Shown: positions 37,417-45,991 of the stretch, piece by piece
How the letters are laid out: each line of letters begins with the position of its first letter
Numbering within the stretch: position 1 is the stretch's first letter
Assembly (NCBI GenBank): GCA_037441775.1
Contig: JBBIRO010000014.1
Location: forward strand, 1-53,011
Source of the DNA: Syntrophobacterales bacterium
GTDB taxonomy: Bacteria > Desulfobacterota > Syntrophia > Syntrophales > CAMTWB01
DNA length: 53,011 nucleotides
Direction of reading: 5' to 3'
Made by a program: the position numbers and the translations under genes
Notes under the pieces: generated by a model
Database searches by the model: none
What the model was told of the DNA's origin: nothing
Seen by the model: only the letters and a program-made list of their open reading frames with translations

Positions 37417-39633
37417 CTACATAAAACTGATGGGATCCACGTCAACCTGCACTGTTATTTTGGGAATTCGCGACGCTAAAGCTATAACATCGCAAGTTAA
37501 TTTATGCAATGAGGCCATATCCCGTCCCTTAAGCATAAGCTGCCAGCGGTGGCGTCCCTTAATCATGCCCAGGGGTGATTCGGCGGGACCTGCGACTTGA
37601 ATTTTTATGTTTCGACAGAGCTCCCGGACGCCTATCCCAAGCTGCCTGGCCCCCTTCTCGCCTTCTTTGGCATCACGGCTGGAAATATGGAAGTTAACCA
37701 GCCGCGAAAAGGGTGGGTACCCCAGGGGACGGCGGAGACGAATTTCTTCCTTATAAAACGTTTCGTAATCATGGCTACATGCGGATACGATTGCGTAATG
37801 GTCAGGGTTAAGGGTCTGGATTAAAACCCGCCCTGGGAGATCTCCGCGACCGCCCCGGCCCGACACCTGGGTCAAAAGCTGGAAAGTCCTCTCCGCAGCC
37901 CGAAAATCCGGGATGTTAAGCGATATATCCGCGAGTATTACTCCGACCATGGTTACTCCGGGAAAATCATGTCCCTTGCTGATCATTTGGGTGCCCACCA
38001 AAATATCGATTTCGCCGGCGCCAAGTTTGTCAAGTATTCGCTCGTAAGAGTCATTCCCCCTGATGCTGTCACGATCTACCCTTGATATCCTGGCTCCGGG
38101 GAAGGCACGGATCAGTTCCTCTTCGACCCGCTCGGTGCCCAGGCCGATTTTTTTAAGACTTAGCCCCCGACACTCCGGGCAGCTCTCGGTTACCTTAATG
38201 GCATAACCACAATGATGACAGGTCAATGATTCCTGTTTGCGACCTCCAAACGGTTGGTGGTAGGTAAGCGATATCGAGCAGTTGCGGCAGCGAAACACAT
38301 AGCCGCAGGCGTTGCAGACCACCAGAGTGTTGAATCCGCGGCGGTTTAAAAAAAGCATTGTCTGCCCACCGGCAATTAGATTTTTTCTGATGGCCATGGC
38401 CATCGGTTCTGAAAAGGGCAGTTTGCCGCCATATTTTTTTAAATCCACTATCGTAACCGGCGGGAGGGGCCGGCTTAATACCCTTTCGGGCAGCGACAGA
38501 ACGCGGTACTTACCGGTCATCGCATTGTGGTAGGTCTGAATATCAGGAGTGGCGGAACCCAAGACCACCGTCGCATCGAAAATCCGTCCCTTGACCAGGG
38601 CCAGATCACGGGCGTTATATTTGAGCCGGTCATCCTGTTTGTAAGACGGGTCATGTTCCTCATCTACAATGATAATTCCCACTTCTTTTAGCGGAGCAAA
38701 GATCGCGGAGCGGGCGCCCAGAACGATTCGGATACGGCCGTCCAGGATTTCCTGCCATTGGTGGCGCCTGGTTGCTTTGCTGACGCCACTGTGGATGACG
38801 GCCAACGGTTCGCCGGGAAACCTGGCCCCTATCCGTTCCAGAAGCTGTGGTGTCAAGGCAATTTCCGGCACCATGTAGATTACGCTGCGTTGGAGGCGGA
38901 TACTTTCTTCTATCGCCTGCAGATAGACTTCCGTTTTGCCGCTGCCGGTAACTCCATGCAGCAGAAAGGGAGAAAATCTGCCGCCGATTATTGCCGACTT
39001 AATTGGTTCCAGAGCCAGTTGCTGCCGGTCATTTAAAATAATGCGCCTGTCCTCAGGAAGAGCGTGGAAGGACCCAAGCTTTTTGGAACTTCGGCTGATC
39101 TGTGTCTTCTCGACGATGTCCTTTCTAAAAAGAGCCGCAAGGACTGGAGATGTGCCGCCTGCTTGAAGGCGCAGTTCAACAAGCGAAGCTTGGCCATGAA
39201 TTTTGAGGTATTCCACGACCGCCGCCTGCTTTGCCGTAAGTTTTTCCGCAGACACCAGGGGATTTTTCAGGCGAATTAAGGTTATTTTTGCTGATTTTTT
39301 ACTCTCCGGGATAGTATCACAAATGGCCTTGCCCAGAGGGTAATGGTAATAACTGGCAATCCAGCGGTATAAAAGAAGGTCTCTCTCGGTGAACTGGGGA
39401 GTGAGAGAGGTGATTTCACCGATCTCCTTCGGGGCGTTGATTTCCGTATTTTCCGCGGTTTCGAGCACATAACCCCGAATCATTTTTTTTCCCAGGGGGA
39501 CGATAACTTCAACGCCCGGCGCTATGGAATCGGCCATCCGGAAGGGGACCCGGTAAGTCAAGGGCTTGTCAATTGGTGCATCAACCGCAATCAAGGCAAA
39601 ACCTGAGGGGGTTGCGGTTGATTCTTCGGGCAT
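37417..39633 (-). CDS. priA: Primosomal protein N'
   Basis: GVTGSGKTE, DEEHD, SATP, NRRG, Cys4 Zn motifs, QVSGRGGR. Confidence 0.96.
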   Translation of the reverse strand: MPEESTATPSGFALIAVDAPIDKPLTYRVPFRMADSIAPGVEVIVPLGKKMIRGYVLETAENTEINAPKEIGEITSLTPQFTERDLLLYRWIASYYHYPLGKAICDTIPESKKSAKITLIRLKNPLVSAEKLTAKQAAVVEYLKIHGQASLVELRLQAGGTSPVLAALFRKDIVEKTQISRSSKKLGSFHALPEDRRIILNDRQQLALEPIKSAIIGGRFSPFLLHGVTGSGKTEVYLQAIEESIRLQRSVIYMVPEIALTPQLLERIGARFPGEPLAVIHSGVSKATRRHQWQEILDGRIRIVLGARSAIFAPLKEVGIIIVDEEHDPSYKQDDRLKYNARDLALVKGRIFDATVVLGSATPDIQTYHNAMTGKYRVLSLPERVLSRPLPPVTIVDLKKYGGKLPFSEPMAMAIRKNLIAGGQTMLFLNRRGFNTLVVCNACGYVFRCRNCSISLTYHQPFGGRKQESLTCHHCGYAIKVTESCPECRGLSLKKIGLGTERVEEELIRAFPGARISRVDRDSIRGNDSYERILDKLGAGEIDILVGTQMISKGHDFPGVTMVGVILADISLNIPDFRAAERTFQLLTQVSGRGGRGDLPGRVLIQTLNPDHYAIVSACSHDYETFYKEEIRLRRPLGYPPFSRLVNFHISSRDAKEGEKGARQLGIGVRELCRNIKIQVAGPAESPLGMIKGRHRWQLMLKGRDMASLHKLTCDVIALASRIPKITVQVDVDPISFM

Positions 39634-39748
39634 AGAATTTAATCCGGCAAGAAGGTTAGGAATGGTTGATCAGTGTCTTGATATATACAGGGAGAATTTT
39701 ATATAGCCAGATGTTCGGCGTCATCAGGTGACTTGGCCAAAAAAGGCC

Positions 39749-40111
39749 TCATTCACCCTTGCGTTTTTCTATCCTCTCCAGTTTTGTTTTGCAGATGATA
39801 CACTGGGTGGTGACGGGACGTGCCATGAGTCTTTTTTCAGAAATAGGCCCGCCGCACTCTTCACAAATGGCAAATGTTCCATCGTCTATACGCTTAATGG
39901 CGTCCTGTATTTTGGTAATAAGCTTGCGTTCCCGATCTCGGATGCGAAGCTCAAAGTTACGGTCTGATTCAAGGGTGGCGCGGTCTGTCGGGTCGGGGAA
40001 ATTTTCCTTGGCGTTCGACATTTCCGTCACGGTGCGATCCGCTTCATCCAAGAGTTTGTTCAATTCCGCTGTCAGCAAGTCTCTAAAATATCGTATTTTA
40101 TCCGGTTTCAT
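39749..40111 (-). CDS. dksA: RNA polymerase-binding factor DksA
   Basis: PDPTDRA coiled-coil tip and CEEC...CIIC Zn finger. Confidence 0.93.
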   Translation of the reverse strand: MKPDKIRYFRDLLTAELNKLLDEADRTVTEMSNAKENFPDPTDRATLESDRNFELRIRDRERKLITKIQDAIKRIDDGTFAICEECGGPISEKRLMARPVTTQCIICKTKLERIEKRKGE

Positions 40112-40308: not shown

Positions 40309-41712
40309 ATGGAATACGCGAACATATATAGCGGTTTGGCCTTGATTGCCGACCCCATATACCGGTACGCTTCCTTCACGGTTCCCCGGGGGGAAGGCCC
40401 ATCGGAGGCAACAGAGAAGGATCTTCTGGACTCCCCATGGCTACAAAGGCTCCGTCGCATCTACCAGCTGCAGAGCGCGCGGTGGGTGTATCCAGCGGCC
40501 GAGCACAGCCGTTTTCAGCACTCACTGGGGACGATGCACATGGCCGGAGAATTTGGCCGGCACCTCTATCCGTCTCTCAAACAAGTCTGCCCTGACCTCC
40601 CATCGCCAAATTATGTCGAAGAGCTGCTCCGGGTTGCCGGGCTGCTCCATGATGTGGGCCATGGACCATATGGCCATTTTTTCGATGATAACTATCTCGA
40701 CCACTTCCAGATCACCCACGAAGATTTGGGAATGGCGATAATTACGGAAAAGCTGGCGGACGTTATCCGGGCCATCAGGAGAAGTCCCAGCGGCAAGTTC
40801 GCCGCTGGGGAGGAATTTGATCCGGCGCAGGTATCATTTTTAATCAGAAAACCCGCCGCAAGCGACAAGCGGCGGCCGAAATGGCTGAAATTCCTCCGCC
40901 AGTTGTTTTCCGGCATTTTCACCGTGGACAATCTGGATTATGTCCAAAGAGACGCCTTCATGACTGGTTTTTCCCTGGATATTGTGGATATCGCCCGGCT
41001 CCGTTTCTACAGCTTCTTCACCAGGGATGGATTGGCCCTTCACCAGACAGGTATTTCCGCCCTAAGCCGGTTTCTCAACGCCAGAATAAATCTCTATACT
41101 AATGTTTATTTTCACCGCACCACCAGGGCGCTAGACATTCATCTACAGGAAATATTCCGCGAGACAATGAATCTTGTTCTCTTAGGTTCGCCACTCGATG
41201 ATTTAGATGGTTATCTGGCGTTTGACGAATGGTTTCTCTACCATAAGGTGCAGGAATGGTCGCAGGAAGATGATCCGGTAAAAAGAGATTTAGGAAGGGA
41301 ATGGTGCAATCTTCATCGGAGAGAAGTAAAGTGGAAAATGGCTTTTTCCACAGAGATATCGATCGACCAGATTCACCGGGGGGCGAGATTTCTCAAGGCG
41401 TCCGATTACGAAAATCACATTAGAGAATATTTGCCGGCGAAATTTAGAAGCATCAATTTTGTAGTGGACATGGCCACCCAGGACCCTCGCCCTTTAAATC
41501 CGATGGCGGAAGTTGACAAAAGGGTGAGCATCTACAATCCCAACACCGGCGTTACTTCACTGGAGCCGCTGATTGAAATCTACCGCTTCATTCCGGCCCG
41601 GGTCGTTCATTTTCGCGTATTTTCGCAAAATCACCAGCAAGATGGAGTGCTTTCTCAGGCAGCCGAGCGCGCTCTCGGCGCCTTGGATAGACCTGAGAAG
41701 ACAAATATATGA
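40309..41712 (+). CDS. HD-domain phosphohydrolase, SAMHD1/dNTP triphosphohydrolase-like
   Basis: DPI, QRLRRIYQL, HSRFQHSLG, LLHDVGHGPYGH, HE, DNLDYVQRD and VYFH; metal ligands intact. Confidence 0.88.
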   Translation: MEYANIYSGLALIADPIYRYASFTVPRGEGPSEATEKDLLDSPWLQRLRRIYQLQSARWVYPAAEHSRFQHSLGTMHMAGEFGRHLYPSLKQVCPDLPSPNYVEELLRVAGLLHDVGHGPYGHFFDDNYLDHFQITHEDLGMAIITEKLADVIRAIRRSPSGKFAAGEEFDPAQVSFLIRKPAASDKRRPKWLKFLRQLFSGIFTVDNLDYVQRDAFMTGFSLDIVDIARLRFYSFFTRDGLALHQTGISALSRFLNARINLYTNVYFHRTTRALDIHLQEIFRETMNLVLLGSPLDDLDGYLAFDEWFLYHKVQEWSQEDDPVKRDLGREWCNLHRREVKWKMAFSTEISIDQIHRGARFLKASDYENHIREYLPAKFRSINFVVDMATQDPRPLNPMAEVDKRVSIYNPNTGVTSLEPLIEIYRFIPARVVHFRVFSQNHQQDGVLSQAAERALGALDRPEKTNI

Positions 41713-43757
41713 ACGAGATCAATGAAACAACCGACCTGACTCTGTTTGTGCGCACCTCCGGCGCTGAGTCCGCCCCCTGGAATCGGCAGCGCATTGTCGA
41801 TGCCCTGTTAAGGGAAACCGGCATTGATTATCTGACTGCCGAGGCGGTAAGCAAAGAAGTTGAGAAACAGATCATGGCCTCCGGCTTGACCAGGCTAACC
41901 ACCACGCTGGTACGCGAGCTGGTGGATGCCCGGCTGGTAGAACGAGGTATGGAACAGGCCAGGGGGATGCACTCCACCTTAGGTTTTCCAATGTTTGACG
42001 TACGGCAACTGCTGCTGCACGAAAACAAGGAAAACGCCAATGTTCCCCATGGCCCGGAGGGTACTAATCTGATTTTGGCGGAAGGAATAAAGCGTGAGTA
42101 CGCTCTGCATGATGTTTTCAGCCAGGATATTTGTGACGCCCATATCAGGGGTGATTTGCACCTTCACGGGCTGGGATACATTGATCGCCCTTACAGCGCC
42201 GCCGGTAACAGCCTGGAGTATCTAAAGCGATTTGGCCTTGACCTGCCCCATGCCCTTACGGTTGCGCACCCGGCCAGGCACGCGGAGGTTCTTTTGGCCC
42301 ATATGGTAAGGTTCAGTGCAGTTCTCCAGGGGCATTTCGGCGGACTCATCTCTTGGAATATGGTGAACATTTCCTTTGCTCCTTATATATCCGGCCTTTC
42401 CGATCGGGAGGTCGAACAGTTCGCCCAGATGCTGATTTACGAGTTTTCCCAATTGACTTCCACCCGCGGCGGTCAGGCCCTGTTCACAGACATTCATCTC
42501 TACTGGCACCTGCCCCAGGGAGTAGCCTGTATGCCGGCGATTGGGCCTGGCGGGGTATACACCGGCAAGACCTACGGCGACTATCAGGCAGAGGCCAGGA
42601 GTCTGGCCCGGGCGATTTTCATGGTGTTTCGTGCCGGCGACGCCCGGGGGCGCCCCTTTATATTTCCCCAGCCCGTAGTGCATATCACGGATGAGTTTTT
42701 TGCTGCCGACGGAGCCGATGAATTCCTGCGCTTGATTTGCCAGGTTGCCTTGGAAAAAGGCAATACTTGTTTTGTCTTTGACCGCTCCCGCGAAAACCTG
42801 CCTGGCGCTGATTTAGCCCGTCAAGAAGGAAACAGTAAATATTGGGATGTCAGGCAGGCGACGATCCATAACGTGACGATCAATCTGCCGCGCCTTGGTT
42901 ACCGGGCGCAGGGAGACGAGAAGCGTTTTTTTTCCTTGCTTGACGAACAGATGCAACTTGCTGTCCGCGCCCACATCAATAAAAGGACATTTATTGAGCG
43001 ACTGCTGGCCTTTGGTGATATGGGCCCGCTTGCGGTCTTGGCCATGAAACAAGATGGCCGCCCCTATCTCCAACTGGAAAATGCCCGTTACTTTATCGGT
43101 CTGGTCGGACTTAATGAGCTTGTTGAGATTATGAGCGGCCGGGGGTTGGATGATGACAGCCGGGGGATGACTCTTGGCCTGAAGGTAGTAGCCTACATGT
43201 CCCAGAAACTGGATATGCTGAGCCGTAACATGGAGCTGCCCCTCTCCCTGGTTCAAACCGAAGCGGAGACAACTGCCTACCGCTTTGCCCGGCTCGATCT
43301 TAAATATTTTTCCCCTGCGGCTGGTAAGTTCGTTCGCGGGGATATCGCCTCGGGCGGGATGTACTATTCGAATTCCACCCATTTGCCGGTTTCGGCCGCG
43401 GTATCATTTTTTACACGAGTGGAGATGGAAGGGAGGTTCCACCCTTATTTAGATGGCAAGCCAACTTGTATTCTCTATACCGGCGATCAACCGCCGCCGG
43501 TTGAAGTCGCTGCCGATTTCATCAAGAGGGCTTTGCTGGAAACCGGAGTGGTAAGCCTGGTATTCTCGCCCGAATTCACCATCTGTCCCGCCTGCGGCAA
43601 GACAGGAAGAGGATTGCAGGCCTTGTGCACTGCCTGTGACTCAAGATCGGTTGACGGAATCGCCCGGATTACCCACTACCTGAGCCGTATCTCCGGATGG
43701 AACAAAGGGAAACTGTCCGAGTTGAAAGACCGCAACCGGCAGATGTCGTTTTTTTAG
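41709..43757 (+). CDS. Class III ribonucleotide reductase (NrdD) homologue, predicted catalytically inactive
   Basis: ATP cone, KENAN, GDLHLH, RGGQ, TINLPR, GLNE, AETTAYRFARLD, YYSNSTH, CPAC..CTAC and WNKGK; the glycyl motif reads RITHY and the catalytic Cys residues are not evident. Confidence 0.85.
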   Translation: MNEINETTDLTLFVRTSGAESAPWNRQRIVDALLRETGIDYLTAEAVSKEVEKQIMASGLTRLTTTLVRELVDARLVERGMEQARGMHSTLGFPMFDVRQLLLHENKENANVPHGPEGTNLILAEGIKREYALHDVFSQDICDAHIRGDLHLHGLGYIDRPYSAAGNSLEYLKRFGLDLPHALTVAHPARHAEVLLAHMVRFSAVLQGHFGGLISWNMVNISFAPYISGLSDREVEQFAQMLIYEFSQLTSTRGGQALFTDIHLYWHLPQGVACMPAIGPGGVYTGKTYGDYQAEARSLARAIFMVFRAGDARGRPFIFPQPVVHITDEFFAADGADEFLRLICQVALEKGNTCFVFDRSRENLPGADLARQEGNSKYWDVRQATIHNVTINLPRLGYRAQGDEKRFFSLLDEQMQLAVRAHINKRTFIERLLAFGDMGPLAVLAMKQDGRPYLQLENARYFIGLVGLNELVEIMSGRGLDDDSRGMTLGLKVVAYMSQKLDMLSRNMELPLSLVQTEAETTAYRFARLDLKYFSPAAGKFVRGDIASGGMYYSNSTHLPVSAAVSFFTRVEMEGRFHPYLDGKPTCILYTGDQPPPVEVAADFIKRALLETGVVSLVFSPEFTICPACGKTGRGLQALCTACDSRSVDGIARITHYLSRISGWNKGKLSELKDRNRQMSFF

Positions 43758-43817: not shown

Positions 43818-45587
43818 TCACGGCGGGGTTTCGCCCGGAAATATCTCTTCTTTGGCAGCGGCAATTGCCCTGCGGAGATAATCTTCGTCCACCATGCCGA
43901 ATGGTCCGGGAGTCTCCAGTATCCGTTTAGGGATGCGGAGATTCTCAAATGAGAAACCTTCACGGATCTTGAATTCAAACTTGGCCCGATGTATTTCTTT
44001 TCCGATGCGGTCCAGTTCCGAAGGCGGGATATCAAAGCCGGCCACAGCCAGAGCTTTTGAGACCAGTTCCGGGGTGTAGATGCCGCGGGCGAAGAAGCAG
44101 ACCACCAGAGAAGATAGGATCTGACGCCACCTTTCCTCTTTGATCAGCTCTGTTATCATCTCCCCCGCCTCTGGTATCCGTTTGGGGAGAACCTTCTGAT
44201 CATAGCTGTAACCGCCGTTATCAAGGTGGCTATGGCGCGCGCCAATGAGAACCCCGACATGGGCGGCGGGTCCGGTATGATAACCGGGCATTTCGTTTCC
44301 GGCAAAAGAGAGGGCAAAATCCGCACCGCCGTATTTTAGAATGGTGTATTCAAGACCCCTTGACAGAGCTTTATATAGATCATTTTTCTGCTTGACGATT
44401 TTTTCCAGCGCAAGCATGTAGGTTTCATAATCACCCCAAACAAGCTTCAGGCCCAAATCCGCTTCGGATATAAGGCCTCTCTCCAGGGCTTCAGTAGCCC
44501 AGGCGAGGACAACCCCGGCGCTCATGGCATCAAAGGCCCACTTCTCCACCCACTCGATTAATTTTAGGAGCCCTTTGGGATCGGCAATGCCAAGCATCGA
44601 TCCAAGCGCATATATCGGTTCGTAATCGTAAGAAATCATGGATGTCTTATAGAAATATGCCTCATCCACATATGGTTCCCTCAAAGCGGCAATGTGAATG
44701 CAGCCTACCGGGCAATGGGAACAGGCCAGCCGTCGCCCCAGGAAGTGCTCAGCCAACTGCTCGCCCGAGATGGCGGCGGCATTTTCCATGCTGGTGGCAG
44801 TCAGATTTTTTGTTGGCAGTCCCCCCATTGCATTTAAGGGAGCTATGTTTTCCGCCGTTCCCAGGTCGTGGTATTTTTTCATCACCGTGGAAGTGACGGC
44901 GGCCTGGTAAATGCTGTCGTATGTTTCCCGATAGGCCTTTTTATTGCTTATTGGCAATGAATGGTTTCCGGATATAACCACTGCCTTGAGTTTTTTGCTA
45001 CCAAACACCGCTCCCAGGCCCAGGCGTCCAAAATGGCGGTAGGTCTCGGTGGTCACACAGGCGTAGGATACCAGGTTTTCCCCCGCACCGCCGATCCTCA
45101 TAATGGTCCTAATGCCCGCGCCCTTTTCGTTTTCCCGGATAATTCTTCCCACAGTAAAACTGCTGACCATGCCCCAAAGGGATGAGGCATCACGAAATGA
45201 AACCCCGTTGCTGTGAATAGCCAGGTAAATCGGCGTTGCGCTTTCTCCCTTGATCACGATTGCCCCGAAACCGGCGCAGCGGATCGCAATGGCGCTCCGG
45301 CCGCCGCAGTGGCTTTCTCCAAGATTTCCGGTCAAGGGGGACTTAAACATGGCGACGGTCTTTGAGGCTAAAGGGAATAAGGCGGTTAGCGGCCCAACCG
45401 CCATGATTATAGGGTTTTCGGGACTTAAGGGGTCGGCGTTTGGCGGGCATTCCTCCGCGATAAGCTGTGCCGCCACTCCGGCGCCGCCAAGGTACCGGGA
45501 GAATAGATCCTCACGACGCACCGTCCGGAAGCGTTTTTTTGTGAGATCAACGTAAAGCACATTGGCCAGGGAGTCGGCGGCGATCAT
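43818..45587 (-). CDS. Aldehyde:ferredoxin oxidoreductase family (tungstopterin) protein
   Basis: YLGGAG, KSPLTG, GRLGLGAVFGSKKLKA, CSHCPVGC, DYEPI, DAMSAG; ATG at 45587 overlaps the upstream stop. Confidence 0.9.
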   Translation of the reverse strand: MIAADSLANVLYVDLTKKRFRTVRREDLFSRYLGGAGVAAQLIAEECPPNADPLSPENPIIMAVGPLTALFPLASKTVAMFKSPLTGNLGESHCGGRSAIAIRCAGFGAIVIKGESATPIYLAIHSNGVSFRDASSLWGMVSSFTVGRIIRENEKGAGIRTIMRIGGAGENLVSYACVTTETYRHFGRLGLGAVFGSKKLKAVVISGNHSLPISNKKAYRETYDSIYQAAVTSTVMKKYHDLGTAENIAPLNAMGGLPTKNLTATSMENAAAISGEQLAEHFLGRRLACSHCPVGCIHIAALREPYVDEAYFYKTSMISYDYEPIYALGSMLGIADPKGLLKLIEWVEKWAFDAMSAGVVLAWATEALERGLISEADLGLKLVWGDYETYMLALEKIVKQKNDLYKALSRGLEYTILKYGGADFALSFAGNEMPGYHTGPAAHVGVLIGARHSHLDNGGYSYDQKVLPKRIPEAGEMITELIKEERWRQILSSLVVCFFARGIYTPELVSKALAVAGFDIPPSELDRIGKEIHRAKFEFKIREGFSFENLRIPKRILETPGPFGMVDEDYLRRAIAAAKEEIFPGETPP

Positions 45588-45991
45588 TGTTTTACCTCCT
45601 TTTCTTCCATCCCGATAACGCCGTGGGGGCAAAAATTGCTGCAAACGCCGCAGTGGATGCAAATCATCGGCTTGTTAATTTCATCAGCCCAGAAGATGGC
45701 CTTAATAAGGCAGGCATTCCGGCAGTTACCGCAACCCAGGCACTTGTCCAAATCGAGTATTACGCCGCCCCCTTTGCGCAACCGCAAAGCGTCCGTGGGG
45801 CAAACCTTGAGGCAAGGCGGGTCATCGCAGGCCCTGCATACCACTACGGTGAAACCCTTTTCCATTCCGCCGACGGAATGAACTCCAATGCAGGTTTTCG
45901 CAAGACCGCCCTCTCCTTGGCGACGATTGCAGGCAAACATGCAGCTCTGACAGCCAACACAGCGATCCGTGTCTTTTATTGAAATCCTCAT
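45584..45991 (-). CDS. 4Fe-4S dicluster protein, AOR small subunit
   Basis: Four Cys clusters: CVGCQSCMFAC, CRACDDPPCLKVCP, CLGCGNCRNAC, CIHCGVCSNFCP. Confidence 0.9.
   Translation of the reverse strand: MRISIKDTDRCVGCQSCMFACNRRQGEGGLAKTCIGVHSVGGMEKGFTVVVCRACDDPPCLKVCPTDALRLRKGGGVILDLDKCLGCGNCRNACLIKAIFWADEINKPMICIHCGVCSNFCPHGVIGMEEKEVKQ

What the first reader, a model, noticed from the sequence alone, without database searches (positions are those of the whole stretch)
41709..43757. NrdD pseudoenzyme: concerted loss of glycyl radical and catalytic cysteines, regulatory parts retained
Seen: the glycyl loop is GIARITHYLSR, with codon 656 CAC (43674-43676). That is at least two substitutions from GGN, so a single-base error is unlikely. 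The segment I recall as RPYC in this NrdD subfamily reads RPYSAAG (Ser163, 42195-42197). The finger-loop region after FVFDR (about 42771-42860, SRENLPGADLARQEGNSKYW) has no Cys, where the thiyl-radical (S.)CCRL motif is expected. The ATP cone, 4-Cys Zn ribbon and WNKGK..EL.DR tail are preserved, with no frameshifts or stops. Established: the Gly and the finger-loop Cys are essential for class III RNR chemistry. Inference: the protein is maintained for a non-catalytic function rather than decaying. Automated pipelines would probably misannotate it as a working RNR.
Basis: partly seen in the sequence, partly recalled or inferred. Interest (0 to 1): 0.85.

Follow-up and report, generated by a model that had tools for sequence, protein, structure and literature searches.

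The report
Dead anaerobic ribonucleotide reductase beside dNTPase
This intact gene encodes a copy of the anaerobic DNA-precursor enzyme NrdD that has lost its radical-chemistry residues yet is conserved across a whole bacterial order, usually fused in an operon with a dNTP-degrading enzyme, so it probably senses or handles nucleotides rather than making them.

Summary
ORF 41709-43757 is an intact 682-aa class III RNR homologue with His656 (CAC) where the radical Gly belongs. It has Ser163 in place of the first-strand Cys, and a short, Cys-free, poorly conserved finger loop.

It is not decaying. dN/dS against the nearest genome is 0.14. Relatives occur in 57 of 61 sampled genomes of the order. 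Nearly all other NrdD-conserved positions are kept, including the NxN flap, Glu520, Asn392, Tyr657 and the four Zn cysteines.

The genome makes dNTPs with another NrdD (27% identical), which sits next to the genome's only NrdG. It also carries a class I/II-type RNR.

The dead copy descends from the phylum's native NrdD type. It has lost the neighbouring NrdG and instead sits directly downstream of a SAMHD1-like HD dNTPase (4-nt overlap here; 32 of 33 loci).

The loss was stepwise, not concerted. Basal families of the order still keep Gly and Cys; a 42-row crown clade lacks both.

The function is inferred: a nucleotide-binding, non-catalytic partner in dNTP pool control. No published description was found. 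Source records call close relatives a working reductase.

The parts
40309..41712 (+). Upstream partner gene: a 467-aa SAMHD1-like HD-domain dNTP triphosphohydrolase homologue. Its stop overlaps the NrdD-like start by 4 nt (ATGA).
   Evidence: Pfam HD plus HD_assoc_2. PDB sequence hits are 2hek, 2q14 and 2o6i at E 1e-25 to 1e-27, and SAMHD1 at about 1e-16. The overlap was read. The gene lies directly upstream on the same strand in 32 of 33 NrdD-like loci. dN/dS is 0.054.
41709..43757 (+). NrdD-like pseudoenzyme ORF (682 aa, P0001).
   Evidence: Pfam NRDD scores 390 bits. NCBIfam TIGR02487 scores 323.4 bits, under its 326.35 cut-off. The AF2 model has pLDDT 91.3 and pTM 0.89. The best Foldseek match is P. 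copri NrdD 8p23_B, E 1e-30.
41742..41978 (+). N-terminal cone-like domain (about residues 12-90). This is the most constrained part of the protein.
   Evidence: PF03477 E 0.0023, 18.9 bits, under the cut-off. dN/dS is 0.05. The VRTS-type sequence is the same in the active sister clade.
42024..42059 (+). NxN flap region (NKENANVPHGPE; Asn109, Asn111), retained.
   Evidence: The alignment to P. copri NrdD is. The flap is described in passages of PMC11226230. Counts among the 120 homologues: N 104 of 120 and N 119 of 120.
42195..42197 (+). Codon 163, AGC (Ser), at the place of the first-strand catalytic Cys.
   Evidence: Among the 120 homologues this column reads S 111, G 6, N 2, T 1 and Cys 0.
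42783..42851 (+). Degenerate finger loop (residues 359-381): no Cys, shortened, variable in sequence and length.
   Evidence: One search shows a 9-residue gap against SMCCRL. pLDDT is 52-63 here. Mean conservation is 0.5, against 0.9 in the active sister clade. dN/dS is 0.55.
42882..42893 (+). NLPR motif with Asn392, retained.
   Evidence: N in 120 of 120 homologues and in all 64 canonical representatives.
43266..43268 (+). Glu520, the equivalent of P. copri Glu581 in the phosphate-binding loop. Retained.
   Evidence: Mapping is through the alignment and passages of PMC11226230. E in 120 of 120 homologues.
43584..43637 (+). Four-Cys zinc ribbon (Cys626, 629, 640, 643), retained.
   Evidence: Each Cys is present in 120 of 120 homologues.
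43656..43733 (+). Former glycyl-radical loop and tail (GIARITHYLSRISGWNKGKLSELKDR). Codon 656 (43674-43676) is CAC (His) at the Gly position.
   Evidence: The Gly column among the 120 homologues reads Q 98, R 9, H 6, K 4, L 2, C 1 and Gly 0. The following Tyr is present in 120 of 120. Contigs of runs X1, X2, X3 and X5 show no difference here.

Best explanation
SHOWN. The gene encodes a full-length class III ribonucleotide reductase (NrdD) homologue. It lacks all three residues of the radical relay: the glycyl-radical Gly, the finger-loop thiyl Cys and the first-strand Cys. It has no activase of its own. Purifying selection has nevertheless kept it through most of a bacterial order.

It descends from the NrdD type that other orders of the same phylum still use as their working enzyme, with NrdG next door. 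In this order, working ribonucleotide reduction is done by a different NrdD subclass (27% identical) with the only NrdG, plus a class I/II-type RNR. The old copy decayed stepwise at the catalytic positions only.

INFERRED. Three things point to a role in nucleotide handling. The substrate-site and effector-site architecture is kept (NxN flap, phosphate loop Glu, Asn of NLPR, Tyr after the former Gly, Zn ribbon, cone-like domain, and 210 positions identical with the active sister clade). Ser is specifically maintained at the old Cys position. The gene is translationally coupled to a SAMHD1-like dNTP triphosphohydrolase.

The protein most likely still binds (d)NTPs without reducing them. It would then act as a nucleotide-sensing or nucleotide-presenting partner of that dNTPase in the control of dNTP pools.

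My odds:
- About 0.9 that it is a maintained, non-reducing pseudoenzyme.
- About 0.4 that its role is tied to the HD dNTPase in this way.

The single confidence figure given for this explanation (0.5) stands for the whole two-layer statement.
For: Catalytic residues are absent.

The working system lies elsewhere. C19 carries a canonical NrdD (ATP cone 76 bits, VYCVGW, SMCCRL, RVVGYL) directly followed by NrdG. This is the only NrdG in the genome at E<=1e-5. A PF02867 RNR is on C66 and an NrdR-type cone on C7.

Selection (NG86 dN/dS, G000 vs G018):
- NrdD-like 0.141; its cone region 0.05; its finger region 0.55.
- HD 0.054; canonical NrdD 0.065; NrdG 0.124.

Distribution. An NrdD-like hit at 45-100% identity was found in 57 of 61 sampled genomes of the order.

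Conservation:
- 67 of 75 columns that are at least 85% conserved in 64 canonical representatives are kept. The changes fall on the Cys and Gly columns.
- 210 positions are identical with the active sister clade, and there are only 12 type-II sites.

Fold. AF2 pLDDT is 91.3, and the best matches are solved NrdDs.

Neighbourhood switch:
- NrdG lies next to 23 of 23 active sister loci and next to 0 of 33 NrdD-like loci.
- HD lies upstream on the same strand in 32 of 33.
- The wider context is not syntenic.

Trees. The order's clade has support 100 and the Gly-less crown 99. The clade has support 98 among wider NrdDs.
Against: No nucleotide binding, protein-protein contact or expression has been shown for this protein.

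The HD link is not obligatory:
- The NrdD-like gene occurs without this HD in G021, G041 and G059 (family f21), G023 and G055.
- HD occurs without it in G054.
- HD orthologues (45-63% identity) exist in other families of the phylum that have only active NrdD, and there they lie on other contigs than NrdD where I compared the listed places (G095, G133, G083, G166).

In the basal families the two genes are often 0.6-9 kb apart or on different replicons.

No HD lies next to any of 80 loci of a more distant NrdD-like group.

The cone-like domain is below Pfam's ATP-cone threshold, so nucleotide binding there is uncertain.

Two or three basal relatives keep Gly and both Cys. Inactivity of the whole clade therefore cannot be assumed; the claim holds for the crown clade that contains the window's gene.
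Confidence: 0.5

Rival explanations
1. It is a maintained non-catalytic protein whose role is independent of the HD dNTPase. Examples: a decoy or regulator of the working NrdD/NrdG system, a nucleotide buffer, or a regulator acting on nucleic acid through its Zn ribbon and cone-like domain (as NrdR does).
For: The gene persists without the HD gene in 5 of 61 genomes, including two single-contig genomes. HD predates it in the phylum. The former glycyl loop and tail stay conserved (dN/dS 0.12; Tyr 120 of 120), as a decoy for an activase would require.
Against: HD adjacency on the same strand holds in 32 of 33 loci, amid otherwise unconserved context. Here the two genes overlap by 4 nt. The only NrdG belongs to a 27%-identical NrdD subclass with a different Gly-loop sequence. 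No NrdR-box-like pair was found upstream (the consensus was recalled).
Confidence: 0.3
2. The old active site has acquired a new, non-radical enzymatic activity on nucleotides, for example hydrolysis or transfer using Ser163 and neighbouring residues.
For: Ser is kept in 111 of 120 homologues at the old Cys position, rather than drifting freely. Substrate-contact elements are retained. A few clade-specific substitutions lie in residues 106-345.
Against: Most of the 12 type-II sites are conservative changes (five K to R, S to T, F to Y, V to A), with no new catalytic-looking motif. The loop that forms the centre of the site is variable in length and sequence.
Confidence: 0.12
3. It is still a working ribonucleotide reductase that uses other residues, or a radical supplied in trans.
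For: The fold and the substrate-binding elements are intact. Among the 120 homologues, 81 have a Cys aligned in one of the two finger-loop columns. Basal relatives keep Gly and Cys.
Against: The window's protein has no Cys in the finger loop, and no Gly or Cys at the essential columns. The invariant finger column 371 is Cys in only 23 of 120 homologues. There is no second activase. The glycyl-domain position is occupied by its own tail, so a spare-part domain has no place to bind.
Confidence: 0.03
4. It is a recently inactivated gene drifting to a pseudogene, or the odd residues are assembly errors.
For: The finger region is relaxed (dN/dS 0.55). The Gly position has drifted among Q, R, H, K, L and C.
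Against: The frame is intact. Whole-gene dN/dS is 0.14. The 42-row crown clade spans many families, and all rows lack Gly. The same codons appear in contigs of four runs from two studies.
Confidence: 0.03

Closest known systems
Class III (anaerobic) ribonucleotide reductase NrdD, e.g. P. copri 8P23, S. thermophilus 9D3X, T. maritima 4COI and phage T4 1H7A
   Same: Same fold over the whole length (Foldseek E 1e-30 to 1e-20). Pfam NRDD scores 390 bits. The NxN flap, phosphate-loop Glu, NLPR Asn, Zn ribbon and the Tyr after the radical position are all kept.
   Different: It has no radical Gly, no finger-loop Cys, no first-strand Cys and no adjacent activase. It falls under the NCBIfam equivalog cut-off.
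Active sister NrdD of other orders of the same phylum (loci L035-L057; representative P0121)
   Same: 49-55% identical. The cone-like N-terminus, WNKGK..EL.DR tail and DRPY context are the same, and 210 positions are conserved identically.
   Different: The sister has DRPYC, SECCRL and RITGYF, with NrdG in the flank in 23 of 23 loci and no HD neighbour.
Catalytically inactive RNR large-subunit homologues of betaherpesviruses (M45/UL45).
   Same: An RNR catalytic-subunit fold that lost catalytic residues and was kept for another role.
   Different: Those are class I R1 homologues in animal viruses and act on host cell-death signalling. This one is class III, cellular and vertically inherited, and is linked to a dNTPase.
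NrdR (Zn ribbon plus ATP cone repressor of nrd operons)
   Same: It uses RNR-type nucleotide-sensing modules for regulation rather than catalysis. The genome has an NrdR-type gene on C7.
   Different: NrdR is a ~150-aa DNA-binding protein. Here the whole 10-stranded barrel is retained. No NrdR-box-like pair was seen upstream of the HD gene.
[quoted passage not shown]
   Same: An NrdD homologue without an activase, noted in genomes.
   Different: The passages I saw give no residues, phylogeny, partner or function. Its relation to this clade was not tested.

Membership tests
Class III RNR catalytic subunit (working NrdD) | Homology and fold of the NrdD barrel | tested here: met
   PF13597 scores 390 bits over residues 108-676. 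AF2 pLDDT is 91.3. The top Foldseek matches are all NrdD structures.
Class III RNR catalytic subunit (working NrdD) | Glycyl-radical Gly in the C-terminal R-[IV]-x-G-Y loop | tested here: not met
   His656 (CAC) sits at that column. None of the 120 homologues has Gly there.
Class III RNR catalytic subunit (working NrdD) | Thiyl-radical Cys at the tip of the finger loop | tested here: not met
   The window's protein has no Cys in residues 359-381. The column is invariant Cys in 64 of 64 canonical representatives, but Cys in only 23 of 120 homologues.
Class III RNR catalytic subunit (working NrdD) | Second catalytic Cys on the first barrel strand | tested here: not met
   Ser163. None of the 120 homologues has Cys there.
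Class III RNR catalytic subunit (working NrdD) | Cognate radical-SAM activase NrdG | tested here: not met
   None in the flanks of 33 loci, against 23 of 23 sister loci. The genome's single NrdG lies beside the other NrdD.
Class III RNR catalytic subunit (working NrdD) | NCBIfam equivalog score (TIGR02487) | tested here: not met
   323.4 bits against a cut-off of 326.35. All other NrdD equivalog models fall far below their cut-offs.
Class III RNR catalytic subunit (working NrdD) | Structural Zn ribbon and substrate-site elements (NxN flap, loop Glu, NLPR Asn) | tested here: met
   Four Cys, Glu and Asn are each present in 120 of 120 homologues. The two flap Asn are present in 104 and 119 of 120.
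Class III RNR catalytic subunit (working NrdD) | ATP-cone activity site | tested here: inconclusive
   PF03477 scores 18.9 bits, under the 25.8 cut-off. A cone-like fold is modelled with confidence. The active sister clade has the same sequence type. Nucleotide binding was not testable.
Pseudoenzyme (catalytically dead homologue kept by selection) | Clear homology to an enzyme, essential catalytic residues missing, purifying selection and long-term retention | tested here: met
   See the rows above. In addition, dN/dS is 0.141, relatives are present in 57 of 61 genomes of the order, and the Gly-less crown clade of 42 rows has support 99.
SAMHD1-like HD dNTP triphosphohydrolase (the upstream gene) | HD domain with the H...HD...D metal-binding pattern, and similarity to solved dNTPases | tested here: met
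   PF01966 plus PF19276. PDB hits are 2hek, 2q14, 2o6i and SAMHD1. H71, H114, D115 and D207 are invariant in 21 orthologues. The assignment of these residues to the SAMHD1 catalytic motif is recalled. Activity was not testable.

The most novel reading that the evidence does not exclude
A class III ribonucleotide reductase was displaced by a horizontally acquired NrdD and then stripped, step by step, of its radical machinery. It was kept as the nucleotide-sensing subunit of a SAMHD1-type dNTPase. Together the pair would form a bacterial dNTP homeostat in which an ex-reductase reads NTP/dNTP levels through its old substrate and specificity sites and gates dNTP degradation.
Probability: 0.3. Interest if true: 0.85.

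Novelty: new variant of a known kind. Interest (0 to 1): 0.75.

Why it matters
- **New kind of pseudoenzyme.** Glycyl radical enzymes and RNRs are textbook radical enzymes. In the searches I made, I found no described class III RNR pseudoenzyme.
- **A natural time series.** This clade is large and old, and it records how an enzyme loses its chemistry while keeping its ligand sites. Basal members still carry Gly and Cys, intermediate ones have lost some residues, and the crown has lost all.
- **A testable function.** The tight coupling to a SAMHD1-like dNTPase suggests an unrecognised layer of dNTP pool control in slow-growing anaerobes.
- **Annotation risk.** These genes are named as working anaerobic reductases in source records. 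Metabolic reconstructions that count RNR classes from annotation will therefore overcount class III in this order.

Tried and rejected
**Complex prediction.** I submitted NrdD-like residues 138-682 with HD residues 7-456, cut to fit the 1000-residue limit. The verdict was 'no answer' (score 0.00). This is no evidence either way.

**Expression.** No RNA holder is listed for the stretch. Seven DNA holders are listed.

**NrdR regulon.** I scanned for a 16-nt NrdR-box consensus recalled from memory.
- No tandem pair was found in the 197 nt upstream of the HD gene, nor upstream of the HD genes in L059, L060, L061 and L066.
- The canonical nrdD upstream region has two 11-of-16 matches 31 bp apart.
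- This is weak and rests on a recalled motif.

**Promoter/terminator scan.** Nothing above shuffle expectation was informative.

**Anti-phage defence.** PADLOC gave no hit for the NrdD-like protein and only a weak dGTPase hit for HD. Vertical inheritance across the order also argues against a defence island.

**Single origin of all Gly-less NrdD-like groups.** FastTree joined them, but IQ-TREE left a polytomy. I make no claim of one origin.

**HD link in a distant NrdD-like group.** None of 80 loci has an HD.

**Wider synteny.** The window's priA, dksA and AOR neighbours are not kept elsewhere.

**Literature.**
- Searches found no description of a Gly-less NrdD.
- Passages were read in PMC9531940, PMC13450708 (no matching passage), PMC3019208, PMC11226230 and PMC12816986.
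- All other papers were seen only in search listings.
- Supplementary files were not opened and could hold relevant lists. RNRdb itself could not be consulted.

**Limits of the counts.**
- The motif state of G012 was not read at the Gly column.
- For three fragments (L182-L184) only the C-terminal columns were read.
- Outside the order, only the 23 returned loci were checked, not all 126 genomes with hits.


Full report
**The object.** ORF 41709-43757 (+) is open and encodes 682 aa. It is a full-length NrdD homologue.
- Pfam NRDD scores 390 bits over residues 108-676.
- The NCBIfam equivalog TIGR02487 scores 323.4 bits, just under its 326.35 cut-off.
- An AlphaFold2 model built on an 86-row alignment has mean pLDDT 91.3 and pTM 0.89. 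Confidence is low only at residues 1-10 and 361-380.
- Its best Foldseek matches are the solved class III RNRs of P. copri, S. thermophilus, T. maritima and phage T4, at E 1e-30 to 1e-20.

**The reported residues.**
- Codon 656 (43674-43676) is CAC.
- Codon 163 (42195-42197) is AGC.
- The finger-loop stretch 359-381 has no Cys.

Three alignments agree on what these positions correspond to.
- BLASTP to the genome's own canonical NrdD pairs S163 with its Cys173 and H656 with its Gly670. It also leaves a 9-residue gap opposite SMCCRL.
- HMMER to P. copri NrdD pairs RITHYL with RITGYL.
- An HMM alignment gives the same columns.

Among the 120 closest database homologues (57-85% identical):
- The Gly column reads Q 98, R 9, H 6, K 4, L 2, C 1, and never Gly.
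- The first-strand Cys column reads S 111, G 6, N 2, T 1, and never Cys.

Logan contigs of four runs from two studies show no difference at either codon. At least one of these runs may be the window's own source.

**The genome reduces ribonucleotides by other means.**
- Contig C19 carries a canonical NrdD (694 aa; ATP cone 76 bits; VYCVGW, SMCCRL, RVVGYL).
- That gene is followed directly by a radical-SAM activase.
- This is the only NrdG-like gene in the assembly at E<=1e-5. The assembly is 96.9% complete.
- A PF02867-type RNR lies on C66 and an NrdR-type ATP-cone gene on C7.

**It is maintained, not decaying.** NG86 dN/dS between the window's genome and the nearest sampled genome (G018):

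| Gene or region | dN/dS |
|---|---|
| NrdD-like gene, whole | 0.141 |
| NrdD-like, cone-like domain | 0.05 |
| NrdD-like, residues 106-345 | 0.10 |
| NrdD-like, finger region | 0.55 |
| NrdD-like, Zn ribbon and tail | 0.12 |
| HD gene | 0.054 |
| Working NrdD | 0.065 |
| NrdG | 0.124 |

Of 75 alignment columns that are at least 85% conserved in 64 canonical representatives, 67 are kept in the 120 homologues. The eight changed columns include the two catalytic Cys columns and the Gly column.

Elements described for P. copri NrdD as forming the substrate-flap-glycyl-domain network are retained (passages of PMC11226230). I mapped them through the alignment.
- NxN flap: Asn109 and Asn111.
- Glu520, equivalent to Glu581.
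- Tyr657, equivalent to Tyr712.
- The NLPR Asn and the four Zn cysteines are also retained.

**Where it comes from.**
- *Order sample.* In a sample of 61 genomes of the window's order, 57 have a hit at 45-100% identity. The exceptions are G020, G040 and G058, which have only the 29% type, and G054, which has none. In the same sample, 54 of 61 also have the 25-31%-identical working type.
- *Likely order.* Source names on close homologues (Smithellaceae, Syntrophales, Syntrophus sp., Deltaproteobacteria) suggest the order is Syntrophales. I did not verify this otherwise.
- *Phylum sample.* In a sample of 301 genomes of the phylum, 126 have hits at E<=1e-80. The 23 returned loci from outside the order are all canonical: DRPYC, RITGYF, 52-54% identical. 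Every one has NrdG in its flank, whereas none of 33 NrdD-like loci does.
- *Trees.* IQ-TREE places the order's proteins as one clade (SH-aLRT 98) within this NrdD subclass.
- *Reading.* The dead copy is therefore the phylum's native NrdD. A different NrdD subclass has replaced it functionally in this order. Replacement by horizontal acquisition is an inference.

**The loss was stepwise.** I read the key columns in 57 genomes of the order. I then built a tree of 54 full-length proteins, rooted on seven active sister sequences and with the trait columns left out. The order's clade has support 100.

| Group | Rows | Support | State of the catalytic positions |
|---|---|---|---|
| Basal, families f2 + f7 | 6 | 100 | Keep the first-strand Cys and the Gly. 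f2 reads SECCTL, SECCNL or SECSNL in the finger loop. f7 has lost the thiyl Cys (SECGRL, SESGYL). |
| Next, families f14 + f5 | 6 | 91 | Keep Gly. The first-strand Cys varies. |
| Crown, includes the window | 42 | 99 | All lack both Gly and the first-strand Cys. |

- G025 and G044 keep all three residues. By my reading of an RCRL register, so does G045.
- Each of G025, G044, G001, G028 and G045 has only one NrdG, which lies beside or near the other NrdD.
- 'Concerted loss' is therefore not right. The pattern is what is expected when catalysis stopped mattering early and the catalytic positions then drifted one by one, while the rest stayed constrained.
- Whether the basal forms are still active is open.

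**The partner gene.** The upstream gene (40309-41712) is an HD-domain protein.
- It carries Pfam HD plus HD_assoc_2.
- Its closest solved relatives by sequence are 2hek, 2q14 and 2o6i, then SAMHD1.
- It is very conserved: 72% mean column identity in 21 orthologues.

Its linkage to the NrdD-like gene is strong.
- Its stop overlaps the NrdD-like start (ATGA).
- HD lies directly upstream on the same strand in 32 of 33 NrdD-like loci. The gap is -3 to 229 nt in 31 of them and 595 nt in one.
- The surrounding genes are not conserved. SIS-domain, GrpE and DnaK genes often follow the pair in other genomes.

The link is not absolute.
- Across the 61 genomes, HD was found in 52.
- The NrdD-like gene occurs without HD in G021, G041, G059, G023 and G055.
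- HD occurs without it in G054.
- Neither was found in G020, G040 and G058.
- In basal families the two genes are often apart.
- HD orthologues at 45-63% identity also occur in other families of the phylum. Where I compared the listed places (G095, G133, G083, G166), they lie on other contigs than the active NrdD.
- The dNTPase is therefore older, and the ex-reductase became attached to it.

**Mechanism.**
- *Shown:* a maintained NrdD homologue that cannot form or use a glycyl radical, with its ligand-site architecture intact, co-located and probably co-translated with a dNTPase.
- *Inferred:* it binds (d)NTPs and acts with the dNTPase in dNTP pool control.
- *Rivals:* an HD-independent regulatory or decoy role, or a new non-radical activity. 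I cannot exclude either.
- The complex prediction gave no verdict, and no RNA data were found (see Tried and rejected).

**Novelty.**
- Seven full-text searches and passages of five papers gave no description of a Gly-less NrdD clade.
- The only hint is a table entry, 'NrdD-like paralog (no NrdG)', for Chloracidobacterium (PMC12816986).
- Inactive class I R1 homologues of herpesviruses are the nearest precedent (recalled, not checked).
- I rate this a new variant of a known kind.

Noticed in passing
Loci L072-L151 (public genome contigs): A separate NrdD-like group of about 750-800 aa has an extra strong ATP cone, no finger-loop CC motif, and no Zn ribbon or glycyl tail. It makes up 20 of the 80 returned loci, from Nitrospiraceae, Hydrogenedentota and others. 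An NrdR gene lies directly upstream in 4 of the 20. No HD neighbour was found in any of the 80 loci.
   Followed up: partly
L113, L094, L095, L125 and 23 other loci: 27 of the 80 loci encode NrdDs that keep the finger-loop CC motif but end before or at the Gly-Tyr position. In L113 a TAG stands at the Tyr position, Ser stands at the Gly position, and the conserved tail FSRISGWNSGKK continues in frame after the stop. L094, L095 and L125 show tail remnants after a TAG. These may be fresh inactivations, split genes or read-through.
   Followed up: partly
L001:3600-3760 (own genome C19, upstream of the canonical nrdD): Two 16-mers match a recalled NrdR-box consensus at 11 of 16 positions and lie 31 bp apart upstream of the working nrdD. 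No such pair lies upstream of the HD gene.
   Followed up: partly
window 42768-42770 (residue 354): The residue just before the FVFDR strand follows the decay series. It is Tyr in the active sister clade and in two of the three f7 rows (Leu in the third), His or Phe in most other basal rows, and Cys in the window's protein and, by eye in the alignment, in most of its 120 closest homologues.
   Followed up: partly
window 42197: A contig of run X5, from a second study, lacks 3 nt here. That gives the one-residue-shorter DRPYSA-NS form seen in the closest relatives. This is a strain-level indel right after codon 163.
   Followed up: no
Proteins P0123-P0126, P0129-P0131 and others: Many NrdD representatives are 1000-1700 aa long and match the query in 2-4 separate stretches. 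One break lies at query residue 162, next to the catalytic Cys position. They are probably inteins in active NrdDs. This was not examined.
   Followed up: no
window 37417-40111 and 43818-45991: Neighbours in this genus are priA-like (738 aa; assigned by eye from its sequence) and dksA (Pfam), both on the minus strand upstream. Downstream on the minus strand lie an aldehyde:ferredoxin oxidoreductase and a 4Fe-4S ferredoxin. None of these neighbours is kept beside the pair in other families.
   Followed up: partly
L060:5651-6811, L062 and L064: An SPFH/Band-7 protein with C-terminal zinc ribbons lies divergently next to the pair, or next to the lone NrdD-like gene, in several genomes.
   Followed up: no
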